A DNA stretch of 64,000 nt from Acidobacteria bacterium RIFCSPLOWO2_12_FULL_66_21 (lineage in GTDB: Bacteria; Acidobacteriota; Vicinamibacteria; Vicinamibacterales; 2-12-FULL-66-21). Location of the stretch: assembly GCA_001767455.1 (NCBI GenBank), contig MELC01000005.1, forward strand, positions 4,139-68,138. The letters run 5' to 3'. Shown piece by piece: positions 3,716 to 63,470 of this stretch (position 1 is the stretch's first letter; every line of letters starts with the position of its first letter). The notes below the pieces were generated by a model. It had not been told where the DNA came from. It saw only the letters and a program-made list of their open reading frames with translations, and ran no database searches. Made by a program: the position numbers and the translations under genes.

Positions 3716-3870
3716 CTCAGTCGATAGTCGATAGTCGATAGTCCAAGTCCAAGTCACAGTCCAAGCCACAGTCCAAGTCGAGTCCAAGTCAAAGTCGACG
3801 ACCTTGACTTGGACTTCGTGACCTTGGCTCCGTGACTTTGACTATCGACTATCGACTATCGACTGATACG
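3716..3870. repeat. Long imperfect hairpin built from tandem TCGATAG heptamers and GTCCAA-type hexamers
   Basis: Outer arms 3719-3743 (agtcgatagtcgatagtcgatagtc) and 3840-3864 (gactatcgactatcgactatcgact) are perfectly complementary over 25 nt. The inner GTCCAAGTCAA / TTGACTTGGAC segments pair again. The hairpin lies between the korB stop and the MFS gene. Confidence 0.9.
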
Positions 3871-8458: not shown

Positions 8459-8640
8459 CATTGTGAGTTGTGGATTGTCAGCAACAGGCTCAAATCGTCC
8501 ATACGGACGACTCCGGCATTGGAGTGAAATTGTGAGTTGCGAGTTGTGAATTGTCAGCAACAGGCCCGAATCGTCCATCCGGACGACTCCGGCATGCCGC
8601 CTCTCAATTTTCAATTCGGAATTCACAATTTCTGCCGTGC
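8459..8640. repeat. Intergenic repeat block: two 46-bp direct repeats (8474-8519, 8550-8595) plus GAGTTGY/GAATTGT heptamers and an inverted partner
   Basis: attgtcagcaacaggcYcRaatcgtccatMcggacgactccggcat occurs twice, 76 bp apart, with 3 mismatches. Each copy holds a TCGTCC-n4-GGACGA hairpin. gagttgtgaattg (about 8541) is complementary to caattcggaattcacaat (about 8611). Confidence 0.85.
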
Positions 8641-13647: not shown

Positions 13648-13653
13648 AAGAGT

Positions 13654-13795
13654 TTCCAGTTCCCGGCTTCCAGCTTCCAGCTTCCAGCTCCCGGCTTCCA
13701 GCTTCCAGCTCCCAGCTTCCAGCTTCCAGCTTCCAGCTTCCAGCGATGGCCGTGAACGACGATGCTGGGAGCTGGAAACGGGCAACTGGAAGCTG
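13654..13795. repeat. CCAGCTT heptamer array (~13 units) with a short complementary arm
   Basis: A tandem CCAGCTT/CCGGCTT/CCAGCTC run spans 13654-13744. The arm gctgggagctggaaacgggcaactggaagctg (13764-13795) can fold back on it. The block lies between the dehydrogenase stop and the fadD promoter. Confidence 0.9.
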
Positions 13796-13798
13796 CAA

Positions 13799-13804
13799 TA
13801 CAAT
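13799..13804 (+). promoter_or_regulatory. -10 box TACAAT, 6 nt before fadD GTG 13811 (leaderless spacing)
   Basis: tacaatcctcccGTG. The box lies immediately after the CCAGCTT array hairpin. Confidence 0.55.
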
Positions 13805-15650: not shown

Positions 15651-15998
15651 CTTCGCCGATCACGATCTTCCGCACGAAGCCCACGAAGGTCACGAAGCTC
15701 ACGAAGACTGATCACGCTGATCGAGGAGGGCCAGCCGTCGGGTGGCGGGCGGGTCGCGCCGCGCTTCGCGCGGCGGGATACGCACCGATCCGCGTTCGCA
15801 AACACCCTTTGCTCATGTGGTGCTTGCGAACGTGGATCGGTGCGTATCCCACGACGCCGGCCGAAACGGCCGGCGCGCGACCCGATGTCAGCGGGACACC
15901 CTCGTTGGCTGGTTCTGTCTTCGTGTCCTTCGTGTCCTTGGTGTTCCTCGTGAGGTAAAGCCGTCGGCGCGTGCAGCGTGAGGGGGTACAGCGTGGAG
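15651..15998. repeat. Structured composite repeat, copy B
   Basis: The left end is cttcgccgatcacgatctt, followed by (CACGAAG)4 at 15673-15706 and a CGCCGCG-cttcg-CGCGGCG hairpin. The central hairpin has 27-nt arms 15775-15801 / 15824-15850 and a 22-nt apical region. A CGCCGGCC-gaaac-GGCCGGCG hairpin follows, then (CTTCGTG)n at 15916-15955 and the tail gccgtcggcgcgtgcagcgtga. Confidence 0.85.
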
Positions 15999-19755: not shown

Positions 19756-19816
19756 GCATCCACGCCTATTTGCCAGCCCGTTCCACGGTTTGGCGTTTGG
19801 TCCCGTCCGCGCTCCT

Positions 19817-19825
19817 TGTTATGAT
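19817..19825 (+). promoter_or_regulatory. Extended -10 promoter TGTTATGAT, 6 nt before nuoI ATG 19832 (leaderless spacing)
   Basis: TGT (19817-19) plus TATGAT (19820-25). This supports ATG 19832 rather than the upstream TTG 19790 as the start. Confidence 0.55.
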
Positions 19826-19831
19826 GGCAGG

Positions 19832-20269
19832 ATGATTCGACCGCTGGTCATCGGCTTTGCCACCACTTTCAAGCACATCTTCAGGAGACCGGTCACGGTC
19901 CAGTACCCCGAACAGAAGGTACCGGTCTTCCCGAAGTACCGGGGCAAACAGGTGCTGATGCGCGACGAGGATGGACTCGAGAAATGCGTAGCCTGCGGCC
20001 TCTGCGCGGTCGCGTGCCCGGCCGATGCCATCTATCTCGAGGCCGCGGAGAACGACGGCACGGTCGATGCCGGCCCGCGCTACGCGAAGACGTACCAGAT
20101 CCACAAGACCCGGTGCATCTTCTGCGGCTACTGTGAGGAAGCCTGCCCGGTGTCGGCGATCTTCATGGGCAAGGACTACGAGCTGGCGGTCTACAGCAAC
20201 AAGGACTTCATCTGGGACAAGGCCGATCTACTGGTGCCGGCGGCGGCTTCGCCTGTGCCGGCACGGTGA
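19832..20269 (+). CDS. nuoI: NADH-quinone oxidoreductase subunit I (2x[4Fe-4S]), orphan copy
   Basis: Start is at ATG 19832 (MIRPLVIGFATTFKHIFRRPVTVQYPEQK). There are two ferredoxin motifs, CVACGLCAVACP and CIFCGYCEEACP. No other nuo genes are in the window. Confidence 0.85.
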   Translation: MIRPLVIGFATTFKHIFRRPVTVQYPEQKVPVFPKYRGKQVLMRDEDGLEKCVACGLCAVACPADAIYLEAAENDGTVDAGPRYAKTYQIHKTRCIFCGYCEEACPVSAIFMGKDYELAVYSNKDFIWDKADLLVPAAASPVPAR

Positions 20270-20270
20270 G

Positions 20271-20350
20271 TGGCGATTGGCGATTGGCGATTGGCGATTG
20301 ACGGATTGCCGATTGTCGATTGGCGATCGACGGGTTGACGATTGGCGATT
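20271..20350. repeat. GGCGATT heptamer array (~11 units, degenerate in the 3' half)
   Basis: tggcgat is repeated 4 times perfectly, followed by tgacgga/ttgccga/ttgtcga/ttggcga... variants. The array fills the whole nuoI-to-metallophosphoesterase spacer and contains that gene's TTG start. Confidence 0.9.
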
Positions 20351-21013
20351 TGGTTCGGCGCGCTCGGAGACGTCCACGGGGACTTCGGCAGCGTGCATCG
20401 CATCATGCGGCGCCACCCGGACATTCCGTTCTGGGTCTCGGTCGGGGACATTGCCGACGACGAGGGGCGGTACGAGCCGGTTGACGCGCCGCTCTACTGG
20501 ATCAAGGGGAACAACGAGAACTTCGACGCGATCGCCGAGGGCCGGCTTCCCGCGAACCTGCACTACCTTCCCAATGCGGCGCTGGTGACCGTCGGAGGCG
20601 TCCGGCTCGCCGGTCTCGGCGGGACCCTGGCGCCCACGTTGTACAACACTCCGGCGAACGAGCTGCCGCACCCGGAGAAGGGATCGGCGCGCGCGACCGG
20701 GCTGGCCGATCGGCGCCGGCATTTCGTGCGGGAGGAAGTCGAGCGGTGCAAGGCCCTCGAGCGGGTCGACCTGTTCCTGTCCCACGAGGCGCCGCGGCCG
20801 TTCCGGGTCGGGCGCATGGATGCCGGCAAGACGCCGATAAATGAGGTACTGGCGGCGATGAAGCCGCGGCTGCACCTGTTCGGCCATCATCATCGCTTCT
20901 CGGAGCAGGAGCGACAGGGGGTGCGCTCGGTCGGCCTCGACCTCGTGTCGAAGTCGTACCTGCTCGTGGACGCCCGGACGCTTGAGTACCATCTCGTGAC
21001 TCGTGACTCGTGA
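20342..21013 (+). CDS. Calcineurin-like metallophosphoesterase
   Basis: 223-aa ORF. Motifs GDVHGD, VGDIADD, GNNEN and LFGHHH. TTG start 20342 is the first possible start after in-frame TGA 20336-38 and sits inside a GGCGATT heptamer array. The stop sits inside a CGTGACT array. Confidence 0.78.
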   Translation: MAIWFGALGDVHGDFGSVHRIMRRHPDIPFWVSVGDIADDEGRYEPVDAPLYWIKGNNENFDAIAEGRLPANLHYLPNAALVTVGGVRLAGLGGTLAPTLYNTPANELPHPEKGSARATGLADRRRHFVREEVERCKALERVDLFLSHEAPRPFRVGRMDAGKTPINEVLAAMKPRLHLFGHHHRFSEQERQGVRSVGLDLVSKSYLLVDARTLEYHLVTRDS

Positions 21014-21150
21014 CTCGTGACTCGTGGCTCGTGACTCGTGACTCGTGACTCGTGACTCGTGGCTCGCAGTTCGTAGCTGAAGCTGGTAGCTGGAAGCTGG
21101 AAGCTGGAAGCTGGTAGCTGGTAGCTGGAAGCTGGTAGCTGGTAGCTGGA
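20994..21150. repeat. Back-to-back heptamer arrays: (CGTGACT)~9 then (GCTGGWA)~11
   Basis: CGTGACT/CGTGGCT units span 20994-21062 and contain the stop codon at 21011-13. GCTGGAA/GCTGGTA units (the complement of CCAGCTT) span 21071-21150 and end 2 nt before ATG 21153. Confidence 0.9.
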
Positions 21151-21152
21151 TC

Positions 21153-22997
21153 ATGCCGATGTCCCCATTTCTCGCGGAGGTCGATCGCCGCGTGCTCGTC
21201 TGTGACGGCGCGATGGGGACGATGCTGTACGGGAAGGGGATCTTCCTGAACCGGTCGTTCGACGAGCTGAACCTGACGCAGCCGGATCTCGTGGCCGAAG
21301 TGCATCAGGCGTACGTGCGCGCCGGCGCGGACGTCGTCGAGACGAACACCTTCGGGGCCAACCGCATCAAGCTCGGCGCGTTCAGCCTGGCCGAACGCGT
21401 GCACGCCATCAATCTCCAGGGCGCACGCATCGCGCGGCATGCCGCGCGCGAGCAGGCGTTCGTCGCCGGCGCCATCGGGCCACTCGGGATCCGGATCGAG
21501 CCGTGGGGCAAGACCGGCGTCGACGAGGCCGAGGAGTACTTCGCCGAGCAGGCGCGCGCGCTGGCCGAAGGCGGGGTGGACCTGTTCATCCTCGAGACGT
21601 TCCGCGACGTCAACGAAATCGGCGCCGCCATTCGGGCGGTGCGGAGCGTCTGCGCGCTGCCCATCGTCGCGCAGGTCACGACCGAGGAGGACGGCAACAG
21701 CCTGGACGGCGCCGCGCCCGAGACCTTCGTGCCGGAACTGGAGCGGCTGGGCGCGGACCTCGTCGGCCTGAACTGCAGCGTCGGACCCGCCGCGATGCTG
21801 GAGACCATCGAGCGGATGGCGCACGTGGCGACGGTGAAGCTCTCGGCGCAGCCCAACGCCGGGCGCCCCCGCGAGATCGAGGGGCGCAATATCTATCTGT
21901 GCTCGCCGGAGTACATGGCGTCGTACGCGAGGCGGTTCATCGCCAACGACGTGCGGCTGGTCGGCGGCTGCTGCGGCACGACACCCGAGCACATCCGTCA
22001 CATCAAGAATGCGGTCCGCGCGATGGCGCCCGTCACCGCCAGGACCGCCGTGACGGCGCCGTCGGCCAAGGCACCCGAGGCGGCGGTGGCCCCCGTGCCG
22101 CGCGGCGAGAAGTCGCGCCTCGCGAACTGCCTGGAGCGGGGCCATTTCGTCGTGACCGTCGAACTGCTGCCGCCGAGAGGGTTCCGCGCGGACGCGCTCG
22201 TCGAACAGGCGCGACAGCTTCGGATCCGGGGGGTGGATCTCATCAACATCCCGGACGCACGCCGGGCCTCCGCGCGCATGAGCGCGCTGTCCGCCGCGCT
22301 GCTGGTGCAGCAGCAGGCCGGCGTCGAGACGGTCCTGCACTATGCCTGCCGGGATCGGAACCTGCTGGGGATGCAGTCCGATCTGCTGGGCGCGCATTCG
22401 ATGGGGATCCGCAACCTGCTCATCATCACGGGGGATCCGCCGCGCGTCGGCGACTATCCCGACGCCACCGCGGTGTTCGACGTGGATTCCATCGGGCTCA
22501 CGAACGTGGTGACGCGGCTCAATCGCGGCCTCGACATCGCGGGGCAGGGCATCGGCCATCCGACCGCGTTCCACGTCGGCGTCGCGATCAACCAGGGCGC
22601 CCTCGATCTCGAGGAGGAGATCCGCCGGTTCCAGTACAAGGTCGAGGCCGGCGCGGAATTCGCGATCACCCAGCCGGTGTTCGACGCGCGCGAGCTGGCA
22701 CAGTTCCTCGAACGGGTGGCGGCCTTCCGGATTCCGGTGATCGCGGGCGTGACGCCGCTCGAAAGCGTGCGCCACGCGGAGTTCATGGCGAACGAGCTGC
22801 CCGGCGTCCACGTGCCCGACGCCACCGTCGAGCGCATGCGCCGCGCGGAGGCCGCCGGGCAGGCGGCCGCGGAGGGGCTCGCCATCGCGCGGGAGGTGGT
22901 GTCGGAGATTCGGCCGCTCGTGCAGGGGCTGCAGATTGCGACCGCGGGCGGGTCGGTGGAGGCGGCGCTTGCCGTCATCGAGGCCGTTGCCGTCTGA
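21153..22997 (+). CDS. Bifunctional homocysteine S-methyltransferase / 5,10-methylenetetrahydrofolate reductase (YitJ-like)
   Basis: 614-aa ORF. The N-terminal Hcy-binding domain (VCDGAMGTMLY...ETNTFGAN...GGCCGTTPEHI) is fused to an MTHFR domain (VTVELLPPRG...ITGDPP...FAITQPVFD). Confidence 0.85.
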   Translation: MPMSPFLAEVDRRVLVCDGAMGTMLYGKGIFLNRSFDELNLTQPDLVAEVHQAYVRAGADVVETNTFGANRIKLGAFSLAERVHAINLQGARIARHAAREQAFVAGAIGPLGIRIEPWGKTGVDEAEEYFAEQARALAEGGVDLFILETFRDVNEIGAAIRAVRSVCALPIVAQVTTEEDGNSLDGAAPETFVPELERLGADLVGLNCSVGPAAMLETIERMAHVATVKLSAQPNAGRPREIEGRNIYLCSPEYMASYARRFIANDVRLVGGCCGTTPEHIRHIKNAVRAMAPVTARTAVTAPSAKAPEAAVAPVPRGEKSRLANCLERGHFVVTVELLPPRGFRADALVEQARQLRIRGVDLINIPDARRASARMSALSAALLVQQQAGVETVLHYACRDRNLLGMQSDLLGAHSMGIRNLLIITGDPPRVGDYPDATAVFDVDSIGLTNVVTRLNRGLDIAGQGIGHPTAFHVGVAINQGALDLEEEIRRFQYKVEAGAEFAITQPVFDARELAQFLERVAAFRIPVIAGVTPLESVRHAEFMANELPGVHVPDATVERMRRAEAAGQAAAEGLAIAREVVSEIRPLVQGLQIATAGGSVEAALAVIEAVAV

Positions 22998-23129
22998 GAG
23001 GCGGCTTGCCCCGTCCGTTCCGACGCGATATAGTCGCCCGAGCTCATACGACAATGGCGCGGTACCCTGCTCGCAACTTCAACAGTCGCCGGCGGTTGCC
23101 GGCATTCCAACTGGACCGGGAAACTGCAG

Positions 23130-23831
23130 ATGCCTTTATTCGATCGCAAGCCTGTGCCCCATGATGAGGTGGTGTCCGGTTCGGACGCCGCCACCCGCGC
23201 GCTCTCGGTGACCGCAGTCGAGAACGATTTCGTCGAAGGAGTCTACGACAAGCTCGCCACGGTCTACGACCTCGTCTTCGGTCCCACGCTGCACCCAGGC
23301 CGGCTTCGGGCGATCCAGCGCATGAACATCCAGCCCGGCGAGCGTGTGCTCGAGGTGGGCGTCGGCACCGGGATCAACCTCCCGCTGTATCCGAAGCTGT
23401 GCTCCGTCACGGGGATCGATTTCTCGGGGTCGATGCTGGAAAAGGCGAGGGAACGCGCGGCGCGCAAGGACATCCGGAACATGCGCCTGCTGCAGATGGA
23501 TGCCGCGGATCTGAAGTTCGCCGACGACTCCTTCGATATCGTGTACGCGCCGTACCTGATCAGCGTCGTGCCCGACCCGGTCCGCGTGGCGCAGGAGATG
23601 CGCCGCGTGTGCCGCCGCGGCGGCCGGATTATCATCCTGAATCACTTCCTCAGCCCGAGCCGCCAGCTGTCGCGCCTCGAGCGGCTGATCTCGCCGTTCA
23701 CCATTCACGTCGGCTTCAAGTCGGATTTGGACCTGCCCGCATTCCTCGCGCAGGCCGAGCTGCACCCTGTCTCGATCGAGAAGGTCAACGTTCCGCGCCT
23801 CTGGTCGCTGGTCACGTGCGTGAAGGACTGA
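23130..23831 (+). CDS. Class I SAM-dependent methyltransferase, phospholipid N-methyltransferase (PmtA)-like
   Basis: 233-aa ORF with the SAM motif I VLEVGVGTGINL. The block YDKLATVYDLVFGPTLHPGR...SVTGIDFSGSML...DIVYAPYLISVVPDP...GGRIIILNHF recalls rhizobial PmtA. The assignment rests on motif memory only. Confidence 0.65.
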   Translation: MPLFDRKPVPHDEVVSGSDAATRALSVTAVENDFVEGVYDKLATVYDLVFGPTLHPGRLRAIQRMNIQPGERVLEVGVGTGINLPLYPKLCSVTGIDFSGSMLEKARERAARKDIRNMRLLQMDAADLKFADDSFDIVYAPYLISVVPDPVRVAQEMRRVCRRGGRIIILNHFLSPSRQLSRLERLISPFTIHVGFKSDLDLPAFLAQAELHPVSIEKVNVPRLWSLVTCVKD

Positions 23832-27593: not shown

Positions 27594-27597
27594 GTCA

Positions 27598-27685
27598 GTT
27601 TCCAGCTTCCAGCTTCCAGCTTCCAGCTTCCAGTTTCCAGCTTCCAGTTTCGAGTTGCGAGCTGCAGCATTCTACATTCTACGTT
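27598..27685. repeat. Mosaic heptamer array: (CCAGYTT)7 + (CGAGYTG)2 + (CTACRTT)2
   Basis: In-register 7-mers run from about 27602 to 27685. They fill the spacer between the glycosyltransferase stop (27679, inside the last unit) and the M24 peptidase start (27593). Confidence 0.88.
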
Positions 27686-28803: not shown

Positions 28804-31296
<2,493 letters not shown>

Positions 31297-32183: not shown

Positions 32184-33473
32184 ATGGCTGACGTCAACAT
32201 GCCCGCCGTCGCGATCACCGGAATCGGCGTCGTGTCCCCCTTCGGCGTCGGACGGCAGCGCTTCTGGGAGGCGATCGCCCGAGGCTGCAGCGCCACGCGG
32301 ACGATTCGCGACTTCGACGCCTCCGCTTACCCGTGTTCCGTTGCAGCACCGGTGCCGCCCGTGTCGATCGACGATCGGGTGGAAATCGCGGGGCGCGCGC
32401 CGGGCGGCCGGGCCGAGCGCAGCGGCCATCCCGACCCGCGCCGCTATTCGAAGGCGTCGCTCATCGCCGTCCTCGCGGCCACCGAAGCGTGGCACGACGC
32501 GGGGCTGCGGTTGAACGAGCCGGGCGCCGGCGTGCTCGTCGGCAGCGGCGCGGGAGGCATCGACGTGGCCGAGCGGCAGTACGAGGACTTCTTCACCCAG
32601 GGAGGCAAGCGCGTCTCGCCCTACGCGATTCCCGTATCGATTGTGGGAATGATCTCGAGCGAGATCTCGATTGCGCTCGAGCTGCACGGCATCAGCCACG
32701 TCGTCTCGACCGGGTGCACGAGCTCCACGGATGCGATTGCGTACGCCACGGCGCTCGTCCGCAGCGGCGAGGCCGACGTCGTCCTGTCCGGCGGCGCGGA
32801 CGCGTGCGTGACGCCGGGCATGGTCTTCGGCTTCTCACGAATGCGCGCCGTCGCGACCCGCTTTAACGACTCGCCGGGCGAGGCCTCGCGTCCGTTCGAC
32901 CTGGAGCGCGACGGGTTCGTGCTTGGCGAAGGCGCGTGGATGGTGGTCATCGAGCGCGCCGATCGGGCGCGGGCGCGAGGCGCGCAGATCTACGCCACCA
33001 TCGACGGCTACGGCTCGACGTGCGATGCGTTCCATCGCGTCCAGATGGATCCCGACGGCGCCGAAATCGTGCGGGCCATGCGGCTCGCCATCGATCGGTC
33101 CGGTCGCGCGATCGAGGACATCGGCTACGTGAACTACCATGGGACATCGACGGTGCTGAACGACGCCGTCGAGTCGCGCTGCGTGCGCCGGCTGTTCGGT
33201 GCGCTCGCCGATCGGGTGCCGGGATCGTCCATCAAGTCGATGATCGGACATCCGCAGGGGGCCAGCGGCGCCGCGGGCATCGTGTCCGCCGCGCTCGCCC
33301 TGTCGGAGGGGTTTCTGCCGCCGACCATCAACCAGCGCACGCCAGATCCCGCCTGCGATCTGGATTTCATTCCAAATGCCGGGCGCGCGGCGACACCGCT
33401 GGCTGCGCTCTGCAACTGCCTCGGGTTCGGCTCGAAAAACAGTGCCATCGTTCTCGGGAAGGACGGGGGCTAG
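32184..33473 (+). CDS. Beta-ketoacyl-[ACP] synthase family protein (FabF/KAS II-like)
   Basis: 429-aa ORF with the catalytic Cys in VSTGCTSSTDAI. The His residues lie in CDAFH and NYHGTSTVLND, and the C-terminal region has GHPQGASG and GFGSKNSAIVL. Confidence 0.85.
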   Translation: MADVNMPAVAITGIGVVSPFGVGRQRFWEAIARGCSATRTIRDFDASAYPCSVAAPVPPVSIDDRVEIAGRAPGGRAERSGHPDPRRYSKASLIAVLAATEAWHDAGLRLNEPGAGVLVGSGAGGIDVAERQYEDFFTQGGKRVSPYAIPVSIVGMISSEISIALELHGISHVVSTGCTSSTDAIAYATALVRSGEADVVLSGGADACVTPGMVFGFSRMRAVATRFNDSPGEASRPFDLERDGFVLGEGAWMVVIERADRARARGAQIYATIDGYGSTCDAFHRVQMDPDGAEIVRAMRLAIDRSGRAIEDIGYVNYHGTSTVLNDAVESRCVRRLFGALADRVPGSSIKSMIGHPQGASGAAGIVSAALALSEGFLPPTINQRTPDPACDLDFIPNAGRAATPLAALCNCLGFGSKNSAIVLGKDGG

Positions 33474-33477
33474 GGCT

Positions 33478-33554
33478 TGCCGCGCCGAAGCGCGAAGCGC
33501 GAAGGCGGGTGCTGGGGCGTGCCGCGCCGAAGCGCGAAGCGCGAAGGCGGGTGC
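33478..33554. repeat. Two 35-bp identical direct repeats (period 42)
   Basis: tgccgcgccgaagcgcgaagcgcgaaggcgggtgc occurs at 33478-33512 and again at 33520-33554, between the KAS and FAD-oxidoreductase genes. Each copy contains (GAAGCGC)2. Confidence 0.9.
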
Positions 33555-39750: not shown

Positions 39751-40668
39751 ATGGCTGCCCCTTCGACGTCCACGTCGCGCGATCTGCGGTTCCTCGACCC
39801 GGCCGTCATCGCACGGCTCGGCACGATGGAGCTGAAGGCGCGCACCGTCGTCGAGGGCTTTCTCTCCGGTCTCCACCGGAGTCCCTACAAAGGCTTCAGC
39901 GTCGAGTTCGCGGAGTACCGCCAGTACCTGCCGGGCGACGATCTCTCGACGCTGGACTGGAAGGTGTACGCGCGCACCGATCGGCACTACGTGAAGAAGT
40001 TCGAGGAGGAAACGAACCTCGAATGCCACCTGCTGCTCGACGTCAGCGCGTCGATGGCGTACCAGGGCGCCGCGCCGATGAGCAAGCTCGAGTACGGGTC
40101 GGTGCTCGCGGCCTCGCTGGCGTTTCTGATGAACCGCCAGCGTGATGCGACGGGCCTCATTGCGTTCGACGATCGCATCCTGTTCCGGATGCCCGCGAGC
40201 GCGCGGCCCGGCCACCTGCACGCGATTCTGCTCGGCCTCGAGCGGCTCGAGGCGGGCAGGCGCTCCGACGTCGGACGTCCGCTGCACCAGCTCGCGGACG
40301 CGCTCGTGAAGCGGAGCCTTGTCGTGCTGGTGTCGGACATGCTGGACGACCCCGAGGCCACGATCAAGGGACTCAAGCACCTGAAGTTCCGCGGCACCGA
40401 TATCGTGGTCTTTCAGGTGCTCGATCCGAACGAGCTGACCTTTCCGTTTCGCGGGGCCTCGCGTTTCCGCGATCTCGAGAGTGCGGAGGAAGTCACCGCC
40501 GACCCGGCACACGTCCGGACGGCCTACCTTCGCGAGCTGGCGGGACTCACACTGAGGTACGACCGCGAGCTGCGCGGCGCGGGGATCGATTACGTGCAGC
40601 TCGATACGTCGAAGCCGCTGGATTTTGCCCTGCTCGCGTATCTCGGCGCGCGTTCGAGGCGCAAGTGA
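39751..40668 (+). CDS. DUF58 (vWA-like) protein
   Basis: 305-aa ORF. YRQYLPGDDLSTLDWKVYARTDRHYVKKFEEE is the DUF58 hallmark. It also has a MIDAS-like LLLDVSASM. Confidence 0.88.
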   Translation: MAAPSTSTSRDLRFLDPAVIARLGTMELKARTVVEGFLSGLHRSPYKGFSVEFAEYRQYLPGDDLSTLDWKVYARTDRHYVKKFEEETNLECHLLLDVSASMAYQGAAPMSKLEYGSVLAASLAFLMNRQRDATGLIAFDDRILFRMPASARPGHLHAILLGLERLEAGRRSDVGRPLHQLADALVKRSLVVLVSDMLDDPEATIKGLKHLKFRGTDIVVFQVLDPNELTFPFRGASRFRDLESAEEVTADPAHVRTAYLRELAGLTLRYDRELRGAGIDYVQLDTSKPLDFALLAYLGARSRRK

Positions 40669-40691
40669 CTATCGACTATCGACTGACGACG

Positions 40692-48978: not shown

Positions 48979-49700
48979 CTTCGCCGATTACGATCTACAG
49001 CACGAAGACCACGAAGGACACAAAGGACACGAAGACGATCACGCCTGGTTGGTTTGGATCACGCTGTTGAGGGAGATCACGCTGCATGCACGGTCACGGT
49101 CCTTGGGCACAAAGCGCACGAAGGGCGCGAAGGACACGAAGACAGCAAAAAAGACAAATCGGCTCCCCTTCGAGATGCGCCGTCGAGCGCCGGCCGGCGT
49201 CACAGGACCAACGAGACCACAAAGGCAAACAGCCGCCGACCATGTGCTGCTTGCGTTTGCGGTCTCGCTGGTCCTGACCGCGCGCAAGCGCGCGGCTCGC
49301 CGGCGCACGCGAGGCGGGACGGTGGGACAGCGGACACCGAGACTGCCCAAAGAGAATGACAGTCTTCGTGAGCTTCGTGTGCTTGGTGGTCTTCGTGCGA
49401 TAACGCCGTCGGCGCGGGCAGCGACAGCGGAACAGCGGAACAGCGGGACACCGAGACTGCCCCAAGAGAATGACAGTCTTCGTGAGCTTCGTGAGCTTCG
49501 TGTGCTTGGTGGTCTTCGTGCGATAACGCCGTCGGCGCGGGCAGCGTGACAGCGGAACAGCGGGAGAGCGGGACACCGAGACTGCCCCAAGAGAATGACA
49601 GTCTTCGTGAGCTTCGTGTGCTTGGTGGTCTTCGTGCGATAACGCCGTCGGCGCGGGCAGCGTGACAGCGCGTTCAGCGGGACAGTGGAACAGTGGGACC
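48979..49700. repeat. Structured composite repeat, copy C, with right-hand module amplified three times
   Basis: The left end is cttcgccgattacgatcta, followed by CACGAAG runs and a central hairpin with arms 49205-49228 / 49251-49274. The right module is then repeated 3 times at 49332-49445, 49446-49570 and 49571-~49695. That module reads ggacaccgagactgcc..(CTTCGTG)n..gataacgccgtcggcgcgggcagcg..cagcgg. The block fills the convergent spacer between the C13-like and rhomboid genes. Confidence 0.88.
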
Positions 49701-50825: not shown

Positions 50826-52238
50826 GTGCTGGGTACGTGTCACTTCGTCCGGCCGGTGCGCGCGCTCGCGTGGGCGGCGGCCTTCGGCATCGGCATCGCG
50901 GCGCCGGGCCTGGCGCAGACCGCCACGGCCCCATCCACCGCGGCGGCAGCCAGCGCGGAGCAGCAGGCGGCAGACCCGCGGCAAATCCGCGCGGAACTGG
51001 ACAAGCTGCGCAAGGAGTTCGAAGCGGTGCGCGACTCGTACGGCGCGCGGCTCGCGGCGCTCGAGGCGAAGCTGGCCGGCGGCCCGCCGGCAGGCGGCGC
51101 GGCGCAACCCTCGACCGTGCCGGTTCCCGTCACGCCACCGGCGGAACCGGTGACGCCGCCGACCCAGCCGCCGCCGGCATCCGCGCAGCCCGGCGAGGTC
51201 CAGGTGCCACAGGGCGCGGCTGGCGCGGGCGGGCCTCAAGGCGCGCTGCCGGTCTATGGCAATGCGTCGGCGCTCTCGAAGATCTTCAACCCGGACATGG
51301 CGGTCATCGGCAACTTCCTTGGCGCGACCGGAAGCAACACAGTGGATCCTGCGCCGGTCCTGGAGATGAACGAAGCGGAAGTCACGCTCCAGGCGATCGT
51401 GGATCCGTATGCACGCGCGGACTTCTTCCTGTCGGCCACGCCCGAGGGCCTGGAGATCGAAGAAGGGTTCCTGACGCTGACGTCACTGCCGGGCGGCCTG
51501 CTCGCGAAAGTCGGGAAGTTCAAGGAGCAGTTCGGGAAGGTCAACACGCTGCACCCGCACGCGTTGTCGTGGGTGGATCAGCCGCTCGTCATGAAGAACC
51601 TGCTCGGCGGGGAAGAAGGCATGTCCGACTCGGGCGTGTCGGTTTCGAAACTGCTCCTCAACCCGTGGGTCTTCCTTGAAGCCACGGGTGAGGTGTTCCA
51701 GGGGAACGCCGGCGTCTTCCAGTCGCACAAGCGCCGCCAGGTGAGCTGGCTGGGACGGTTGCGCGGCTACCGCGACGTGACCGAAGCGACGAACCTCGAT
51801 GTGGGGCTGTCGTTCGCGCGCGGCCACAACGACGCGGGGCCGGACTTCACGACGCGGCTCTTCGGCGTCGACGCGACGGTGAGGTATCGTCCGCTGCAGC
51901 GCGCCATCTACCGCCGCTTCATGGGACGGACGGAGCTGATCTGGAGCCGCCGCGCGGAGGACGTGAGGAACGTCACCGCGTTCGGGATGTATGCGAGCGG
52001 CGACTACCAGTTCGCGCGCAGGTGGTTCGGGGGCGCGCGCTACGACCGTGCGGCGCGGGCATACGACTCGGCGCTCGTCGACAGCAGCGGCTCGCTCGTG
52101 CTGACCTACTGGCCGAGCGAGTTCAGCCAGGTCCGCGGGCAGTTGCGGCGGACGAAGTACGCGGAAGGCGTCATCGGCAACGAGGCGCTCTTCCAGTTCC
52201 TGTTCTCAATCGGCGCCCATGGCGCGCATGTGTTCTAG
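50826..52238 (+). CDS. Putative outer-membrane beta-barrel protein with N-terminal coiled coil
   Basis: Start is GTG 50826, 5 nt after AGGAGG. It has a signal peptide (...GIAAPGLAQ) and a coiled coil (IRAELDKLRKEFEAVRDSYGARLAALEAKL). The body has alternating beta-strand-like sequence and ends in an aromatic residue (..GAHVF). Confidence 0.65.
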   Translation: MLGTCHFVRPVRALAWAAAFGIGIAAPGLAQTATAPSTAAAASAEQQAADPRQIRAELDKLRKEFEAVRDSYGARLAALEAKLAGGPPAGGAAQPSTVPVPVTPPAEPVTPPTQPPPASAQPGEVQVPQGAAGAGGPQGALPVYGNASALSKIFNPDMAVIGNFLGATGSNTVDPAPVLEMNEAEVTLQAIVDPYARADFFLSATPEGLEIEEGFLTLTSLPGGLLAKVGKFKEQFGKVNTLHPHALSWVDQPLVMKNLLGGEEGMSDSGVSVSKLLLNPWVFLEATGEVFQGNAGVFQSHKRRQVSWLGRLRGYRDVTEATNLDVGLSFARGHNDAGPDFTTRLFGVDATVRYRPLQRAIYRRFMGRTELIWSRRAEDVRNVTAFGMYASGDYQFARRWFGGARYDRAARAYDSALVDSSGSLVLTYWPSEFSQVRGQLRRTKYAEGVIGNEALFQFLFSIGAHGAHVF

Positions 52239-52304
52239 CAGGCAGCAGGCAGCTGGCGGCTGGCAGCGTGACACACTGCAAGCTGCCTGCTGCATGCTGC
52301 CAGC
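52238..52304. repeat. GCAGGCA/GCTGGCR heptamer run forming a hairpin after the outer-membrane protein gene
   Basis: gcaggcagcaggcagc (52238-52253) pairs with gctgcctgctgc (52282-52293). gctggcagc (52259-67) pairs with gctgccagc (52296-304). This may act as a terminator or attenuator before znuA. Confidence 0.75.
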
Positions 52305-52331
52305 TGAGACGATACAGAAAGGCCCGGCATC

Positions 52332-56098: not shown

Positions 56099-56404
56099 AT
56101 GCGGCCGCTCCCGCGCGGCCATCGGCTGGCGGTGATCCTCTGGCTGGTCATCGGCCTCCTGGTCTGGAACGGCGTCTACGACCTGATCCTGGGCAAGGGG
56201 CTCAAGGAATACCTGTTCCGTGCCGCGCTGCACGAGGCCGGCCGCGGCCCCGCGATCACGATTGAATCGGTGATGGACGCCTGGCGGCTGTACGCGGTGT
56301 GGGTCGCGACCCTGTGGGCGTCGATCATCGTGCTTGCGGGGATGGTGACCATCAAGCTTGCGGGCCGACGGGAAGAGGCTGAAAACGTAGAACGTAGAAC
56401 GTAG
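56099..56404 (+). CDS. Small two-TM hypothetical membrane protein
   Basis: 101-aa ORF that starts 2 nt after the phosphatase stop. It has two hydrophobic helices. The C-terminal codons and the stop run into an AACGTAG heptamer array. Confidence 0.5.
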   Translation: MRPLPRGHRLAVILWLVIGLLVWNGVYDLILGKGLKEYLFRAALHEAGRGPAITIESVMDAWRLYAVWVATLWASIIVLAGMVTIKLAGRREEAENVERRT

Positions 56405-56508
56405 AATGCGGTCACGCTGTCGAGCCGCACCGAGCAGCCGCCTTCGCGCAAAGGCGCTTCGGCGAGCCCGGCCGAGCCCCGAGTAACGAGCTGCGAACTG
56501 CGAGCTGC
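56381..56508. repeat. (AACGTAG)3-4 array, unique GC-rich core, then (GAGCTGC/GAACTGC)3 array
   Basis: AACGTAG units span 56381-56408 and GAGCTGC GAACTGC GAGCTGC spans 56488-56508. The core ccgccttcgcgcaaaggcgcttcggcg resembles the reverse complement of the 33478 repeat. Confidence 0.85.
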
Positions 56509-56519
56509 GACAAGTATCT

Positions 56520-57728: not shown

Positions 57729-57766
57729 CATGCAGAGTTCTTGCTGCTGCCCGTGACCGGGCCTTC

Positions 57767-57788
57767 CACGTTCTACGTTCTCACATTC
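57767..57788. repeat. (CTACGTT)-type array, inverted relative to 56381-56408
   Basis: ccacgttctacgttctcacattc lies directly after the isopropylmalate-synthase-like gene. It is the complement of the AACGTAG family found upstream of that gene. Confidence 0.75.
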
Positions 57789-57794
57789 GACGTG

Positions 57795-60198: not shown

Positions 60199-60308
60199 GG
60201 AACGTAGAACGTAGAAGGCAGGATCGTCTTCGTGGACTTCGTGTCCTTCGCGATCTGTCCGAAAAGCCGTGGCCCGTCTCAGCGTGGTTCGAGTGCTTCT
60301 ACGTTTTA
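60199..60308. repeat. Mosaic element: (AACGTAG)2 + (CTTCGTG)3 + distal CTTCTACGTTTTA
   Basis: ggaacgtagaacgtagaag (60197-60216) is complementary to cttctacgtttta (60296-60308). In between lie gtcttcgtggacttcgtgtccttcgcg. The element sits between yacG and the Tmk-like gene pair. Confidence 0.8.
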
Positions 60309-63350: not shown

Positions 63351-63470
63351 CACTCGCTCGCGGGGCCCCCGTCGCCCCGCTCCGCTCGTGAGGCTCGTTC
63401 GCTCCGCTCACTCGCGGGGCCCCCGTCGCCCCGCTCCGCTCGTGAGGCTCGTTCGCTCCGCTCACTCGCG
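63351..63470. repeat. Tandem 54-58-bp repeat (2.1 copies) in the ppx / CHAD divergent region
   Basis: cactcgc(tc)gcggggcccccgtcgccccgctccgctcgtgaggctcgttcgctccgct occurs at 63351-63408 and 63409-63462, with a partial third copy at 63463-70. It is preceded by a CTGGGGGC-ttcg-GCCCCCAG stem-loop (63322-63340). Confidence 0.88.

What the first reader, a model, noticed from the sequence alone, without database searches (positions are those of the whole stretch)
20271..21150. Dispersed vocabulary of tandem heptanucleotide arrays (STRR-like); here they supply the start and stop codons of a gene
At least eight 7-mer families recur as tandem runs in intergenic DNA across the window:
- CCAGCTT at 13654-13744 and 27602-27650, with its complement GCTGGWA at 21071-21150.
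- CGTGACT at 20994-21062.
- CACGAAG/CTTCGTG at 15673-15706, 15916-15955, 48999-49038, 49360-49640 and 60227-60250.
- TCGATAG/CTATCGA at 3719-3743, 3840-3864 and 40669-40683.
- GGCGATT at 20271-20350.
- AACGTAG/CTACGTT at 56381-56408, 57767-57788, 60199-60216 and 27672-27685.
- GAGYTGC at about 8532-8556, 27651-27664 and 56488-56508.
- GCAGGCA at 52239-52265.

Arrays of different families are concatenated into mosaics. This resembles, in principle, the STRR heptamer repeats of heterocystous cyanobacteria and the mosaic BIME/REP elements of enterobacteria. I know of no description of it for high-GC genomes of this type.

At this locus the metallophosphoesterase gene is literally bracketed by arrays. 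Its only possible start (TTG 20342, preceded by in-frame TGA 20336-38) lies in the last GGCGATT unit. Its stop (21011-13) lies in the CGTGACT run. The GCTGGWA run ends 2 nt before the next gene's ATG. Seven is not a multiple of three, so gain or loss of a unit would alter the C-terminus and the spacing of the neighbouring genes.
Basis: partly seen in the sequence, partly recalled or inferred. Interest (0 to 1): 0.65.

Follow-up and report, generated by a model that had tools for sequence, protein, structure and literature searches.

The report
Intergenic heptamer repeat arrays in an acidobacterium
The spacers between genes in this soil/groundwater acidobacterial genome are largely made of short 7-base units repeated head to tail, a known but poorly understood kind of bacterial repeat. 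At one gene these repeats have overwritten the original start codon and lengthened the protein's tail.

Summary
Exact runs of at least 3 copies with period 7 occur 10 times in the 64-kb window. Shuffles give 0, and periods 6 and 8-15 give none. All arrays lie between genes and are reproduced in independent assemblies.

Corrections:
- The CACGAAG "family" has a 9-nt period and belongs to a longer dispersed composite element.
- A few listed sites are only 2 units or imperfect.

The metallophosphoesterase (MPE) gene does start (TTG 20342) and stop (TGA 21011) inside arrays. The closest relative found (88% identical protein) has spacers of 9 and 3 nt, no arrays, an ATG start and a shorter C-terminus. 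The arrays are therefore derived and have remodelled both gene ends.

More distant relatives carry different 7-, 8- or 9-nt arrays at the same two operon junctions. These are usually inverted pairs that fold as long hairpins.

This matches the over-represented intergenic heptameric repeats already described in Xanthomonas (also high-GC), Nostoc, the STRR repeats of cyanobacteria and Beggiatoa.

Best reading: slippage-driven, fast-turnover spacer DNA, with hairpin formation and uncoupling of neighbouring cistrons as side effects. Changes in unit number do not alter the protein.

Verdict: new member of a known kind, moderate interest.

The parts
20271..20350 (+). TGGCGAT/GGCGATT array, about 11 units. 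It fills the whole 72-nt Fer4-MPE spacer. Its last unit holds the MPE start codon TTG 20342 and codons 2-4.
   Evidence: TRF and sequence. The sense strand folds at -37 kcal/mol (z -5.6), the antisense at -11 (z 0). The closest relative L213 has a 9-nt spacer and an ATG start here.
20342..21013 (+). Metallophosphoesterase (MPE) gene, 223 aa. The N-terminal residues (M)AIW and the C-terminal TRDS plus the stop codon are encoded by array units.
   Evidence: Pfam Metallophos and ORF list. Comparison with L213: MQFGALGDVHGDF... versus (M)AIWFGALGDVHGDF..., and ...LEYHLVS* versus ...LEYHLVTRDS*. A start at ATG codon 22 (the 202-aa call P0002) removes the GDVHGD motif.
20993..21066 (+). CTCGTGA array, 10.6 units. 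It begins at the conserved Leu-Val codons of MPE. The stop TGA 21011-13 lies in unit 3. The other assembly has 13 units.
   Evidence: RNA folding is weak (-15 kcal/mol, z +3.2).
21067..21150 (+). Transitional units (CTCGCAG, TTCGTAG, CTGAAG) followed by the GWAGCTG array (about 11 units), which ends 2 nt before ATG 21153.
   Evidence: Fold -35 kcal/mol, z -3.7.
19832..20269 (+). Fer4 (NuoI-like 2x[4Fe-4S]) gene, first gene of the conserved fer4-mpe-metH-like cluster.
   Evidence: Pfam. Gene call in L001. Synteny in relatives.
21153..22997 (+). Homocysteine S-methyltransferase/MTHFR fusion gene, immediately downstream of the arrays.
   Evidence: Pfam. The same ATG start is used in L213, 3 nt after the MPE stop.
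13654..13796 (+). TTCCAGC x13 (13654-13744) plus a short inverted arm GCTGGRA (13763-13796). Together they form an asymmetric hairpin.
   Evidence: Fold of 13650-13799: -73 kcal/mol, z -5.9.
27596..27685 (+). CAGCTTC x8, then GAGTTGC GAGCTGC (a degenerate inverted arm), then CATTCTA x2. This fills the spacer between two minus-strand genes.
3717..3866 (+). 150-nt near-perfect hairpin built from AGTCGAT (7-nt) and AGTCCA (6-nt) units and their mirrored complements.
   Evidence: Fold -87 and -96 kcal/mol, z -13.5 and -14.
40667..40684 (+). GACTATC x2.6, filling the roughly 23-nt spacer between the DUF58 stop codon and the probable BatA start (ATG 40692).
52237..52306 (+). AGCAGGC x4.4 and inverted GCTGCCT x3.6, forming a hairpin. 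The stop codon of the upstream gene lies in the first unit.
   Evidence: Fold -49 kcal/mol, z -4.1. Identical in 3 other assemblies.
56384..56406 (+). AACGTAG x3.3.
   Evidence: Identical in other assemblies.
56487..56510 (+). CGAGCTG x3.4, ending 9 nt before the HMGL-like gene start.
57764..57793 (+). Imperfect TTCTACG x4 (complement of AACGTAG) in a convergent spacer.
60200..60216 (+). GAACGTA x2.4, followed at 60227-60252 by three CTTCGTGNN 9-mers.
15671..15978 (.). Composite element, not a heptamer array: 4x CACGAAGNN, a GC-rich core with a long hairpin (15768-15857), 4x NNCTTCGTG, and a conserved tail.
48996..49692 (.). Second and larger copy of the composite element. Its right-hand 116-nt module is repeated 3.1 times (49324-49692).

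Best explanation
**What they are.** These are fast-evolving short-unit tandem repeats. The unit is 7 nt here; relatives also have 8- and 9-nt units. They belong to the already described class of over-represented intergenic heptameric SSRs: the STRR repeats of cyanobacteria, GGGAATC of Xanthomonas and TAACTGA of Beggiatoa.

**How they arise (mechanism inferred).**
- They arise and grow inside the very short spacers at gene ends by replication slippage or tandem duplication.
- Further slippage homogenises and diversifies the units. This gives unit-sequence drift, changes of unit length between 7 and 8 nt, and transitional units.
- Inverted duplication (template switching) often turns an array into a mirrored pair that can fold as a long hairpin.
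- They persist only where they do not break reading frames.

**What happened at this locus.**
- The arrays expanded the two junctions of a conserved fer4-mpe-metH-like cluster from about 9 and 3 nt to 72 and 139 nt.
- They replaced the native ATG and the first codons of the metallophosphoesterase with array-derived TTG-GCG-ATT-TGG.
- They added three codons and a new stop at its 3' end.

**What they probably do (inferred).** They likely have no sequence-specific function. The expected consequences are loss of tight translational coupling, a weak start context (TTG, no clear Shine-Dalgarno), and extra RNA or DNA secondary structure between cistrons. Copy number changes the spacing between genes, not the proteins.

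**Shown versus inferred.**
- Shown: the arrays are non-random, period-specific and intergenic; they are a derived state at this locus; they turn over at orthologous junctions; two assemblies differ in unit count.
- Inferred: slippage and template switching as the generating mechanism, folding in vivo, and effects on expression.
For: **Period specificity.**
- Window: 10 exact period-7 runs against 0 in shuffles, and 0 for periods 6 and 8-15.
- Relatives: arrays outside called genes number 61 (period 7), 23 (period 9), 15 (period 8) and at most 1 for periods 6, 10, 11 and 12. Periods 6, 9 and 12 dominate inside genes.

**Derived state.** The closest relative L213 (MPE 88% identical) has spacers of 9 and 3 nt, an ATG start and the C-terminus ...HLVS*. 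The window has 72 and 139 nt of arrays, a TTG start and ...HLVTRDS*. The CTCGTGA array starts exactly at the conserved Leu-Val codons.

**Turnover at orthologous junctions.**
- Of 47 fer4>mpe spacers and 56 mpe>metH spacers, about 20 each are 60 nt or longer; three of those at mpe>metH are >1-kb insertions of other sequence.
- Nearly all of the other long ones are arrays with 7-, 8- or 9-nt units. The unit sequence differs between lineages.
- The remaining spacers are short, with medians of 40 and 21 nt.
- Related units sit at the same site in different relatives: GGCGATT, GGTGATT and the 8-nt GAATTGGT.

**Differences between assemblies concentrate in repeats.** Against a 99.97%-identical assembly, the only indel in 19.9 kb of aligned sequence is 3 units in the CTCGTGA array. 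Two of the 5 SNPs also fall there.

**Divergence in place.** Transitional units link the two adjacent arrays.

**Inverted duplication.** In the hairpin at 3717-3866, irregular units are mirrored arm to arm.

**No strand-specific RNA signal.** Hairpin spacers show no sense/antisense asymmetry: the sense strand is the more stable in 8 of 20 and 10 of 19.

**Too many unit families for one binding protein.** At least 7 unit families occur in 64 kb.

**No mobility genes.** No transposase, RAYT or reverse-transcriptase gene is in the window.

**The unit is not special.** A scrambled control heptamer array is as frequent in viral contigs (11 hits) as window units (4 and 5 hits).

**Literature.** The same properties are described in Xanthomonas.
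Against: - The same units recur at unlinked loci in 64 kb (CCAGCTT at 3 loci, AACGTAG at 3-4, TCGATAG at 2), far more often than chance.
- The GGCGATT and CTCGTGA arrays attract 26 times and 14 times the contig depth of their flanks in the source metagenomes. That points to dispersal or to a strong sequence bias, which simple seeding in place does not explain.
- Two CCAGCTT loci share the same neighbour units (GARYTGC).
- Long spacers at the two junctions fold much better than shuffles (median z -5), while the promoter-bearing metH>mtase spacer does not (z about 0). This would also fit selection for hairpins.
- In the window, arrays are absent from 0 of 7 divergent spacers and present in 13 of 21 others (my hypergeometric P about 0.005). 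That hints at a link with transcribed 3' regions.
- The 3-unit difference between assemblies could be an assembly effect. Contigs break inside the arrays and no raw reads were available.
- No transcript data exist.
Confidence: 0.58

Rival explanations
1. The arrays are selected cis-acting structural elements, REP/BIME-like in function. Transcribed intercistronic or 3' hairpins would stabilise upstream mRNA, attenuate read-through, or tune the relative expression of neighbouring cistrons. The repetitive arms would simply be the way such hairpins are built and renewed.
For: - Many arrays are inverted pairs with very stable folds: 3717-3866 at -87 kcal/mol (z -13.5), 13650-13799 at -73 (z -5.9), 52237-52306 at -49 (z -4.1).
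- Long spacers at the two operon junctions in about 40 relatives have median z -5.0, against 0.05 for the metH>mtase spacer.
- The architecture (array, loop, inverted array) recurs at the same junctions although the unit sequences differ.
- In the window, arrays occur only in spacers that contain a gene 3' end.
- No promoter-like site lies inside the fer4-mpe-metH cluster, so the arrays would be transcribed.
Against: - About half of the relatives, including the closest one, have no element at these junctions. The elements are therefore dispensable.
- In the window the focal arrays are direct-only. The CTCGTGA array folds worse than shuffles (z +3.2), and the whole mpe>metH spacer has z -0.6.
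- There is no G-U strand asymmetry.
- There are no U-tails or intrinsic-terminator matches at the arrays.
- Variant units are not mirrored in most pairs.
- Depletion in divergent spacers is not reproduced in relatives: 8 of 49 against 31 of 138, P = 0.42, with crude gene calls.
Confidence: 0.2
2. The arrays are copies of small non-autonomous mobile or copy-pasted modules (REPIN- or MITE-like). These would insert at gene ends and then expand.
For: - Identical units occur at unlinked loci in the window.
- Both the array at 27596 and the minus strand of the array at 21073 show CCAGCTW units followed by GARYTGC units.
- Contig depth at two arrays in the metagenomes is 14 to 26 times that of the flanks.
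- The CACGAAGNN composite element clearly is a dispersed module with conserved non-repeat parts and inverted 40-nt ends.
Against: - The heptamer arrays have no conserved non-repeat flanks, defined ends or target duplications.
- Array boundaries coincide with conserved codons of the flanking gene.
- Units at orthologous junctions drift gradually between relatives.
- No transposase or RAYT gene is in 64 kb.
Confidence: 0.1
3. The arrays are multivalent binding platforms for an RNA- or DNA-binding protein, acting as a translational regulator at start codons. This has been proposed for the TAACTGA repeats of Beggiatoa.
For: - Arrays end 2-9 nt before start codons (21153, 27593 on the minus strand, 56520) or contain the start codon (20342). 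Canonical Shine-Dalgarno motifs are missing there.
- MacGregor 2015 describes the same situation.
- GCTGGAA units carry GGA, the core of CsrA sites (established knowledge).
Against: - At least 7 unrelated units occur in 64 kb, and different units occur at the same junction in relatives. One regulator cannot read them all.
- The arrays occur in both orientations relative to transcription (CCAGCTT in the sense strand at 13654, AAGCTGG in the sense strand at 21073 and 27596).
- Many arrays abut stop codons rather than start codons.
Confidence: 0.07
4. The arrays are assembly artefacts.
For: Short contigs and Logan unitigs end inside the arrays (L002, L003). Two assemblies disagree on the unit number of one array.
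Against: NCBI, ENA and JGI assemblies of different samples give identical arrays at 13654, 20271, 21073, 27596, 52237, 56384, 56487, 57764 and 60200. All arrays are shorter than a 150-nt read. Relatives show analogous arrays.
Confidence: 0.02

Closest known systems
[quoted passage not shown] 2015, PMC4692102, citing Mrazek et al. 2007)
   Same: - 7-nt units in head-to-tail arrays of 2 to 26 copies.
- About 90% intergenic.
- Very close to the 3' end of the upstream ORF, and mostly between co-directional ORFs.
- Many inverted pairs able to form stem-loops.
- Strong length and sequence variation between related genomes at the same gene pairs.
- High-GC host (Xanthomonas).
   Different: - Xanthomonas has one dominant G-rich unit with G-quadruplex potential. 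This window has at least 7 unrelated units, none with G3 tracts, although some relatives do carry CGGGATT arrays.
- In this clade 8- and 9-nt units behave in the same way.
- Here the arrays reach into start and stop codons.
- The host phylum is Acidobacteriota.
STRR (short tandemly repeated repetitive) heptanucleotides of heterocystous cyanobacteria (Mazel et al. 1990, recalled from memory; cited as ref. 39 in PMC4692102)
   Same: Several different heptamer families per genome, arranged in tandem, intergenic and dispersed.
   Different: Different unit sequences and a different phylum. STRR is defined by its cyanobacterial units, so this is an analogue and not a member.
TAACTGA direct repeats of marine Beggiatoaceae, cyanobacteria and Bacteroidetes (MacGregor 2015, PMC4679880)
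   Same: Heptamer direct repeats within a few nucleotides upstream of start codons. Canonical ribosome-binding sites are lacking there. Found in operons of housekeeping genes and shared across distant phyla.
   Different: A single unit and short sets (2-6 copies) in Beggiatoa. Here there are many units, longer arrays, and arrays at stop codons as well.
REP / BIME / REPIN elements of Enterobacteria and Pseudomonas (e.g. Di Nocera et al. 2013, PMC3733652)
   Same: Extragenic, transcribed, downstream of genes, hairpin-forming, often in inverted pairs. They make up a sizeable share of intergenic DNA.
   Different: REPs are 20-40-nt imperfect palindromes of one or a few conserved sequences, carry a GTAG or CGTC tag, and are mobilised by RAYT transposases. 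The arms here are internally periodic, differ from locus to locus, and no RAYT was seen.
Phase-variable contingency SSRs (e.g. the 7-bp repeats upstream of hmw1A in Haemophilus influenzae, PMC8262952)
   Same: Tandem 7-bp units next to genes whose copy number can change by slippage.
   Different: In those loci the unit number sets promoter output or reading frame. Here the copy number leaves both ORFs unchanged, and the genes are metabolic housekeeping genes of an environmental bacterium.

Membership tests
Over-represented intergenic heptameric SSRs (Mrazek 2007; Rehm 2015) | Head-to-tail arrays of a 7-nt unit, 2 or more copies, at many loci | tested here: met
   About 14 period-7 arrays in 64 kb. 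Ten exact runs of at least 3 copies.
Over-represented intergenic heptameric SSRs (Mrazek 2007; Rehm 2015) | Period 7 over-represented against chance and against other unit lengths | tested here: met
   Ten runs against 0.0 in shuffles; periods 6 and 8-15 gave 0. Relatives, outside called genes: 61 (period 7), 23 (9), 15 (8), at most 1 for the others. In loci from other phyla: 238 period-7 runs against 6 or fewer for periods 8-12.
Over-represented intergenic heptameric SSRs (Mrazek 2007; Rehm 2015) | Predominantly intergenic | tested here: met
   All window arrays lie in spacers or overlap only gene termini. In relatives 69% of period-7 arrays fall outside called genes, which cover 81% of the DNA.
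Over-represented intergenic heptameric SSRs (Mrazek 2007; Rehm 2015) | Close to the 3' end of the upstream ORF; mostly co-directional or convergent spacers, rarely divergent | tested here: inconclusive
   Window: arrays in 10 of 17 co-directional, 3 of 4 convergent and 0 of 7 divergent spacers. Relatives with crude gene calls: 24 of 116, 7 of 22 and 8 of 49; same trend, P = 0.42.
Over-represented intergenic heptameric SSRs (Mrazek 2007; Rehm 2015) | Frequent inverted pairs | tested here: met
   8 of 29 window arrays and 61 of 218 arrays in relatives have an inverted partner within 300 nt. Folds.
Over-represented intergenic heptameric SSRs (Mrazek 2007; Rehm 2015) | Length and sequence variation between related genomes at the same gene pair | tested here: met
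Over-represented intergenic heptameric SSRs (Mrazek 2007; Rehm 2015) | G-rich unit able to form G-quadruplexes (defines the Xanthomonas/Nostoc subfamily only) | tested here: not met
   No window unit has a G3 tract. Some relatives carry CGGGATT or GGGATTT arrays.
STRR of heterocystous cyanobacteria | The specific STRR unit sequences in a heterocystous cyanobacterium | tested here: not met
   Homologues of the window's MPE protein (about 70% identical) that carry a source name are called Acidobacteria/Acidobacteriota bacterium. The units differ from the STRR units as I recall them, so that part of the comparison rests on memory.
REP / BIME / REPIN | A conserved 20-40-nt imperfect palindrome present in many near-identical copies | tested here: not met
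   The repeat search finds only array-versus-array matches and the CACGAAG composite element. No shared palindromic unit was found.
REP / BIME / REPIN | GTAG or CGTC tag at one end of the palindrome | tested here: inconclusive
   GTAG occurs inside the GTAGCTG and AACGTAG units, and CGTC occurs in the tail of the composite element. Neither acts as a terminal tag of a defined palindrome.
REP / BIME / REPIN | Cognate RAYT (Y1) transposase in the genome | not testable with these tools
   None among the window's proteins. The rest of the genome was not available.
Phase-variable contingency locus | Unit number switches the reading frame or promoter spacing of the adjacent gene | tested here: not met
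   The stop codon is reached in any frame within 3 units. An assembly with 13 units encodes the identical protein. No promoter-like site lies at the arrays.
MITE | Terminal inverted repeats, target-site duplication, defined ends, multiple copies | tested here: not met
   Not met for the heptamer arrays. The CACGAAGNN composite element has 40-nt inverted ends and at least 2 copies, but no target duplication was identified, so that element stays inconclusive.

The most novel reading that the evidence does not exclude
In this acidobacterial clade, tandem-armed hairpins with 7-9-nt units could be a maintained, self-renewing class of intercistronic element. The unit count would act as a heritable, rapidly mutable rheostat for translational coupling or read-through between neighbouring genes of housekeeping operons. 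That would be a contingency-locus-like mechanism in free-living soil and groundwater bacteria. The same process would be a regular source of new start codons and new protein termini.
Probability: 0.12. Interest if true: 0.7.

Novelty: new member of a known kind. Interest (0 to 1): 0.4.

Why it matters
Why heptameric repeats are over-represented in some bacterial genomes has been open since 2007, and no function is known for STRR-type arrays.

This locus gives an unusually clean before-and-after comparison. A conserved three-gene cluster has almost no spacers in the closest relative, and array-filled spacers here. Dozens of more distant relatives carry different 7-9-nt arrays or hairpins at the same two junctions.

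The locus shows directly that such arrays can overwrite a start codon (ATG to TTG), change N- and C-terminal residues, and push coupled genes apart. It also shows that they mislead gene callers: 11 public contigs annotate a truncated enzyme.

The set of orthologous junctions is a ready test bed for separating mutational origin from selected hairpin function.

Tried and rejected
- **Reads on the arrays.** On 19800-21078 only Logan contigs exist, and they break at the arrays, so per-read unit counts could not be obtained.
- **RNA runs.** None are listed, so transcription through the arrays is untested.
- **Rfam.** Only a tRNA passes the gathering threshold. With E-value thresholds, the composite-element hairpins hit only generic plant miRNA-precursor models far below threshold. 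I rejected these.
- **G-U wobble idea.** I asked whether units are self-complementary hexamers that pair only in the sense RNA. This holds for GGCGATT (-37 against -11 kcal/mol). It fails for CTCGTGA (z +3.2), and 39 relatives' spacers show no sense bias. Rejected as a general rule.
- **4-nt palindromic cores.** Four of 7 units contain one (AGCT, TCGA or ACGT), against about 36% expected. Not significant (my calculation).
- **Cross-phylum sharing of GCTGGWA arrays.** More than 120 species carry them, which looked striking. A scrambled control heptamer array is at least as common in viral contigs (11 hits against 4; 5 against 0 for the second pair). I treat the sharing as the expected yield of a huge database and not as evidence for a privileged unit. 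The test is weak, with only two pairs.
- **Depletion in divergent spacers.** It is significant in the window but not in relatives.
- **Protein 2831-3715.** It is not on record, so there is no strain comparison for the hairpin at 3717-3866.
- **Mrazek 2007.** The paper could not be opened. Its claims are cited through PMC4692102.
- **Paper searches.** Neither the assembly accession nor a description of such repeats in Acidobacteria turned up.
Full report
**1. The observation**

A simple exact test counted runs in which s[i]=s[i+p] holds for at least 2p bases. Period 7 gave 10 runs (289 nt). Periods 6 and 8-15 gave none, and 20 dinucleotide-preserving shuffles gave 0.0.

I built a gene map from GC3-guided ORFs, public gene calls on overlapping contigs and Pfam. 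On that map every array lies in a spacer or overlaps only the last or first codons of a gene. Arrays and related composite repeats cover 1415 of about 7300 intergenic bases.

The arrays are not assembly noise. NCBI, ENA and JGI assemblies from other samples reproduce them base for base at 13654, 20271, 21073, 27596, 52237, 56384, 56487, 57764 and 60200.

Two corrections are needed:
- The CACGAAG/CTTCGTG "family" has a 9-nt period (CACGAAGNN, normally four copies). It is part of a longer dispersed element, described in section 7.
- Four of the listed sites are only two units long or imperfect.

- 3717-3866 folds at -87 kcal/mol (z -13.5).
- 13650-13799 folds at -73 (z -5.9).
- 52237-52306 folds at -49 (z -4.1).
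- 27596-27664 is the fourth such pair.

**2. The focal locus**

- Gene 19832-20269 is a 2x[4Fe-4S] ferredoxin-like gene.
- Gene 20342-21013 is a calcineurin-like metallophosphoesterase (MPE).
- Gene 21153-22997 is a homocysteine S-methyltransferase/MTHFR fusion.
- Gene 23190-23831 is a methyltransferase.

The MPE ORF opens with TTG 20342, right after an in-frame TGA. The catalytic GDVHGD motif follows 8 codons later. The next start candidate is ATG at codon 22, which eleven public contigs use (the 202-aa call P0002), and it would delete that motif. The TTG start therefore stands, and it lies in the last GGCGATT unit. The stop TGA 21011-13 lies in the third CTCGTGA unit. The GWAGCTG run ends 2 nt before ATG 21153.

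**3. Comparison with relatives**

A metagenome scan with the 614-aa protein returned 80 loci at 60-82% identity. The order fer4-mpe-metH-like-methyltransferase is conserved in most of them. The MPE gene is missing in about 14.

I extracted the orthologous spacers.
- Among 47 fer4>mpe spacers the median length is 40 nt. Among 56 mpe>metH spacers it is 21 nt.
- About 20 of each are 60 nt or longer; three of those at mpe>metH are >1-kb insertions of other sequence. Nearly all of the other long ones consist of short tandem units, usually as array, loop, inverted array.
- The unit differs from lineage to lineage. Examples: (CGGGATT)4...(AATCCCG)5 in L151; AAAGCCT and AAAGACC units in L185; 9-nt CAGGAAGGG-type units in L137 and L142; 8-nt ATCTGGTA...TACCAGAT in L139, L142-144, L158 and L176; and CACGAAGNN x4...NNCTTCGTG x4 in L179.

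These long spacers fold far better than shuffles (median z -5.0 at both junctions). The metH>mtase spacer does not (median z 0.05, n=48). That spacer carries the only promoter-like site of the region, TTGCCC-17-TATAGT at 23006-23034, whose TATAGT is conserved in relatives. Sense and antisense strands fold equally well (sense better in 8 of 20 and 10 of 19). The complementarity is therefore a property of the DNA, and there is no G-U signature of an RNA under selection.

TRF on all relatives (776 kb) gives 91 period-7, 40 period-8 and 68 period-9 arrays, and few of other lengths. With crude gene calls, the arrays outside genes number 61 (period 7), 23 (period 9), 15 (period 8) and at most 1 for periods 6, 10, 11 and 12. 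Periods 6, 9 and 12 dominate inside genes. The phenomenon is thus clade-wide. The window is about twice as dense in period-7 arrays as the average relative.

**4. The arrays here are a derived state that remodelled the gene ends**

The closest relative found is L213, whose MPE is 88% identical.
- Its spacers are 9 nt and 3 nt.
- Its MPE begins ATG CAG TTT GGC (MQFGALGDVHGDF) and ends CAT CTG GTT TCA TAA (...HLVS*).
- The window begins TTG GCG ATT TGG TTC GGC ((M)AIWFGALGDVHGDF) and ends CAT CTC GTG ACT CGT GAC TCG TGA (...HLVTRDS*).

The array has therefore replaced the native start codon and first codons, and it has extended the C-terminus by three residues. The CTCGTGA array begins exactly at the conserved Leu-Val codons, which suggests growth from a local seed.

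In L177 (72% identical) the start reads ATGGCGATT and sits in the right arm of a miniature AATCGCC/GGCGATT inverted pair. L125, L169 and L133 carry GGTGATT, GGCGATT and the 8-nt GAATTGGT units at the same site. This looks like gradual unit drift and changes of unit length in place.

Inside the window the two adjacent arrays are joined by intermediate units: CTCGTGG, CTCGCAG, TTCGTAG, CTGAAG, CTGGTAG. That again points to divergence in place and not to concatenation of ready-made modules.

**5. Variability**

Against contig MEKV01000122.1 of GCA_001767055.1, which is 99.97% identical over 19.9 kb, the only indel in the continuous alignment is 21 nt (3 units) inside the CTCGTGA array. Two of the five substitutions are also in that array. 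The two remaining substitutions near the end, and a 63-nt length difference, lie in a 9-nt coding repeat of the Lon gene. Short arrays of 3-4 units are identical in all assemblies.

The protein is identical with 10 or 13 units. A 7-periodic sequence that contains TGA has an in-frame stop in every frame within 21 nt. Only the distance between genes changes.

One caveat applies. Contigs tend to end inside these arrays (L002, L003 and the Logan unitigs), and no raw reads could be laid. The 3-unit difference could thus be an assembly effect.

**6. Dispersal**

The same units recur at unlinked loci in the window: CCAGCTT at three loci, AACGTAG at three or four, TCGATAG at two. In the source metagenomes the GGCGATT and CTCGTGA arrays attract 26 and 14 times the contig depth of their flanks.

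These include Acidobacteriota/Vicinamibacterales, Halomonas, Pseudomonas, Chromatiaceae, Chloroflexota, Planctomycetota, Patescibacteria and Flavobacteriales. In the 0.9 Mb around those hits, period 7 again dominates: 238 runs, 87 of them with other units, against 6 or fewer for periods 8-12.

Control scans in viral contigs show that a scrambled heptamer array is as common as the window's units (11 against 4 hits; 0 against 5). The cross-phylum sharing is therefore probably just what a very large database yields. The recurrence within this one genome remains unexplained by pure seeding in place.

**7. Context of the arrays and the composite element**

In the window, arrays occur in 10 of 17 co-directional, 3 of 4 convergent and 0 of 7 divergent spacers of 30 nt or more (my hypergeometric P is about 0.005). 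With crude gene calls in relatives the trend has the same direction but is not significant: 24 of 116, 7 of 22 and 8 of 49, P = 0.42.

There are no intrinsic-terminator matches at the arrays. No transposase, RAYT or reverse-transcriptase gene is in the window. Rfam finds nothing apart from a tRNA.

The CACGAAGNN blocks flank a GC-rich core with a long hairpin, at 15671-15978 and at 48996-49423. A 116-nt right-hand module is triplicated at 49324-49692. The two copies share non-repeat sequence, while their hairpin stems differ yet still pair. That element may be a MITE/REPIN-like module or a small RNA gene. It is separate from the heptamer arrays.

**8. What it most likely is**

The properties match the intergenic heptameric SSRs already described. 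Rehm et al. 2015 (PMC4692102) report, citing Mrazek 2007, that heptameric SSRs are over-represented in many bacteria. For high-GC Xanthomonas they describe 186 GGGAATC arrays: about 90% intergenic, on average 28 nt from the upstream ORF, mostly between co-directional genes, about 70 in inverted pairs, and strongly variable between species at the same gene pairs. They also relay a polymerase-slippage explanation. MacGregor 2015 (PMC4679880) describes TAACTGA repeats just upstream of start codons that lack ribosome-binding sites.

I therefore file the finding as a new member of a known kind. Its particular points are these:
- The phylum is Acidobacteriota (named homologues).
- Many unrelated units occur in one genome.
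- 8- and 9-nt units behave like the heptamers.
- A start codon and both termini of an enzyme were demonstrably remodelled.

My best explanation is slippage-driven, fast-turnover spacer DNA, frequently mirrored into hairpins by template switching (confidence about 0.58). Its probable side effects are uncoupling of neighbouring cistrons and added secondary structure. The rivals are:
- selected REP-like hairpins (0.20);
- copy-pasted mobile modules (0.10);
- protein-binding platforms (0.07);
- assembly artefact (0.02).

Slippage, folding in vivo and effects on expression are inferred. The rest is shown by the sequence comparisons cited above.

Noticed in passing
window 15671-15978 and 48996-49692: Dispersed composite element: 4x CACGAAGNN (9-nt period), a GC-rich core with a long hairpin (15768-15857; 49203-49276), 4x NNCTTCGTG, and a conserved tail TAAnGCCGTCGGCGCGnGCAGCG. 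The right-hand 116-nt module is repeated 3.1 times at 49324-49692. Both copies sit in convergent spacers. The hairpin stems differ in sequence but both still pair. It could be a MITE/REPIN-like module or a small RNA gene. There is no Rfam match.
   Followed up: partly
window 30179-30241 (Lon protease gene): The other assembly (L001) carries 63 extra nt here (seven 9-nt units, in frame), plus 2 SNPs at 30206 and 30227. This is a coding tandem repeat that varies between assemblies.
   Followed up: partly
window 63353-63470: A 54-nt tandem repeat (2.2 copies). Three other assemblies (L204-L206) have one more copy.
   Followed up: partly
window 23006-23034 and the 22998-23189 spacer: The only sigma-70-like site between 13 and 29 kb is TTGCCC-17-TATAGT, upstream of the methyltransferase gene. 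The TATAGT motif is conserved in nearly all relatives' spacers and is followed there by a leader of roughly 50-110 nt to the start codon. This suggests a separate promoter and possibly a regulatory leader. No Rfam family matches.
   Followed up: partly
L127, L129, L164, L168, L173, L175, L181, L186, L189, L193, L195, L199, L200, L202: In about 14 of 80 relatives the metallophosphoesterase gene is absent and fer4 is followed directly by the metH-like gene. Some of these spacers again hold tandem units, for example the 12-nt units in L181 and L195.
   Followed up: no
window 20342-20405; protein P0002: Eleven public contigs annotate the metallophosphoesterase from ATG at codon 22 (202 aa). That call removes the metal-binding GDVHGD motif. 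The array-borne TTG start misleads gene callers.
   Followed up: yes
L208 (window 60538-61328) and L209 (window 59212-59274): Short, highly divergent patches (about 160 and 18 differences) in contigs that are otherwise about 100% identical to the window. These are either recombination tracts between strains or chimeric assembly.
   Followed up: no
window 55779-55854: ARAGORN calls a tRNA-Ser(GGA) inside the FHA-GAF-SpoIIE ORF. Rfam does not report it, so it is probably a false positive.
   Followed up: partly
window 8461-8595 and 33458-33554: Two further tandem duplications in spacers. One has a 76-nt unit x2 containing TTGTGAG-type heptamers and a small hairpin. The other has a 42-nt unit x2.3 containing CGAAGCG heptamers.
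   Followed up: no
L009 6625-6727 and 7617-7723; L015, L035, L072 and others: GCTGGWA arrays occur in more than 120 species-representative genomes of many phyla. They appear as inverted pairs in an Acidobacteriota MAG, and as runs of at least 16 units in Halomonas and Pseudomonas.
   Followed up: partly
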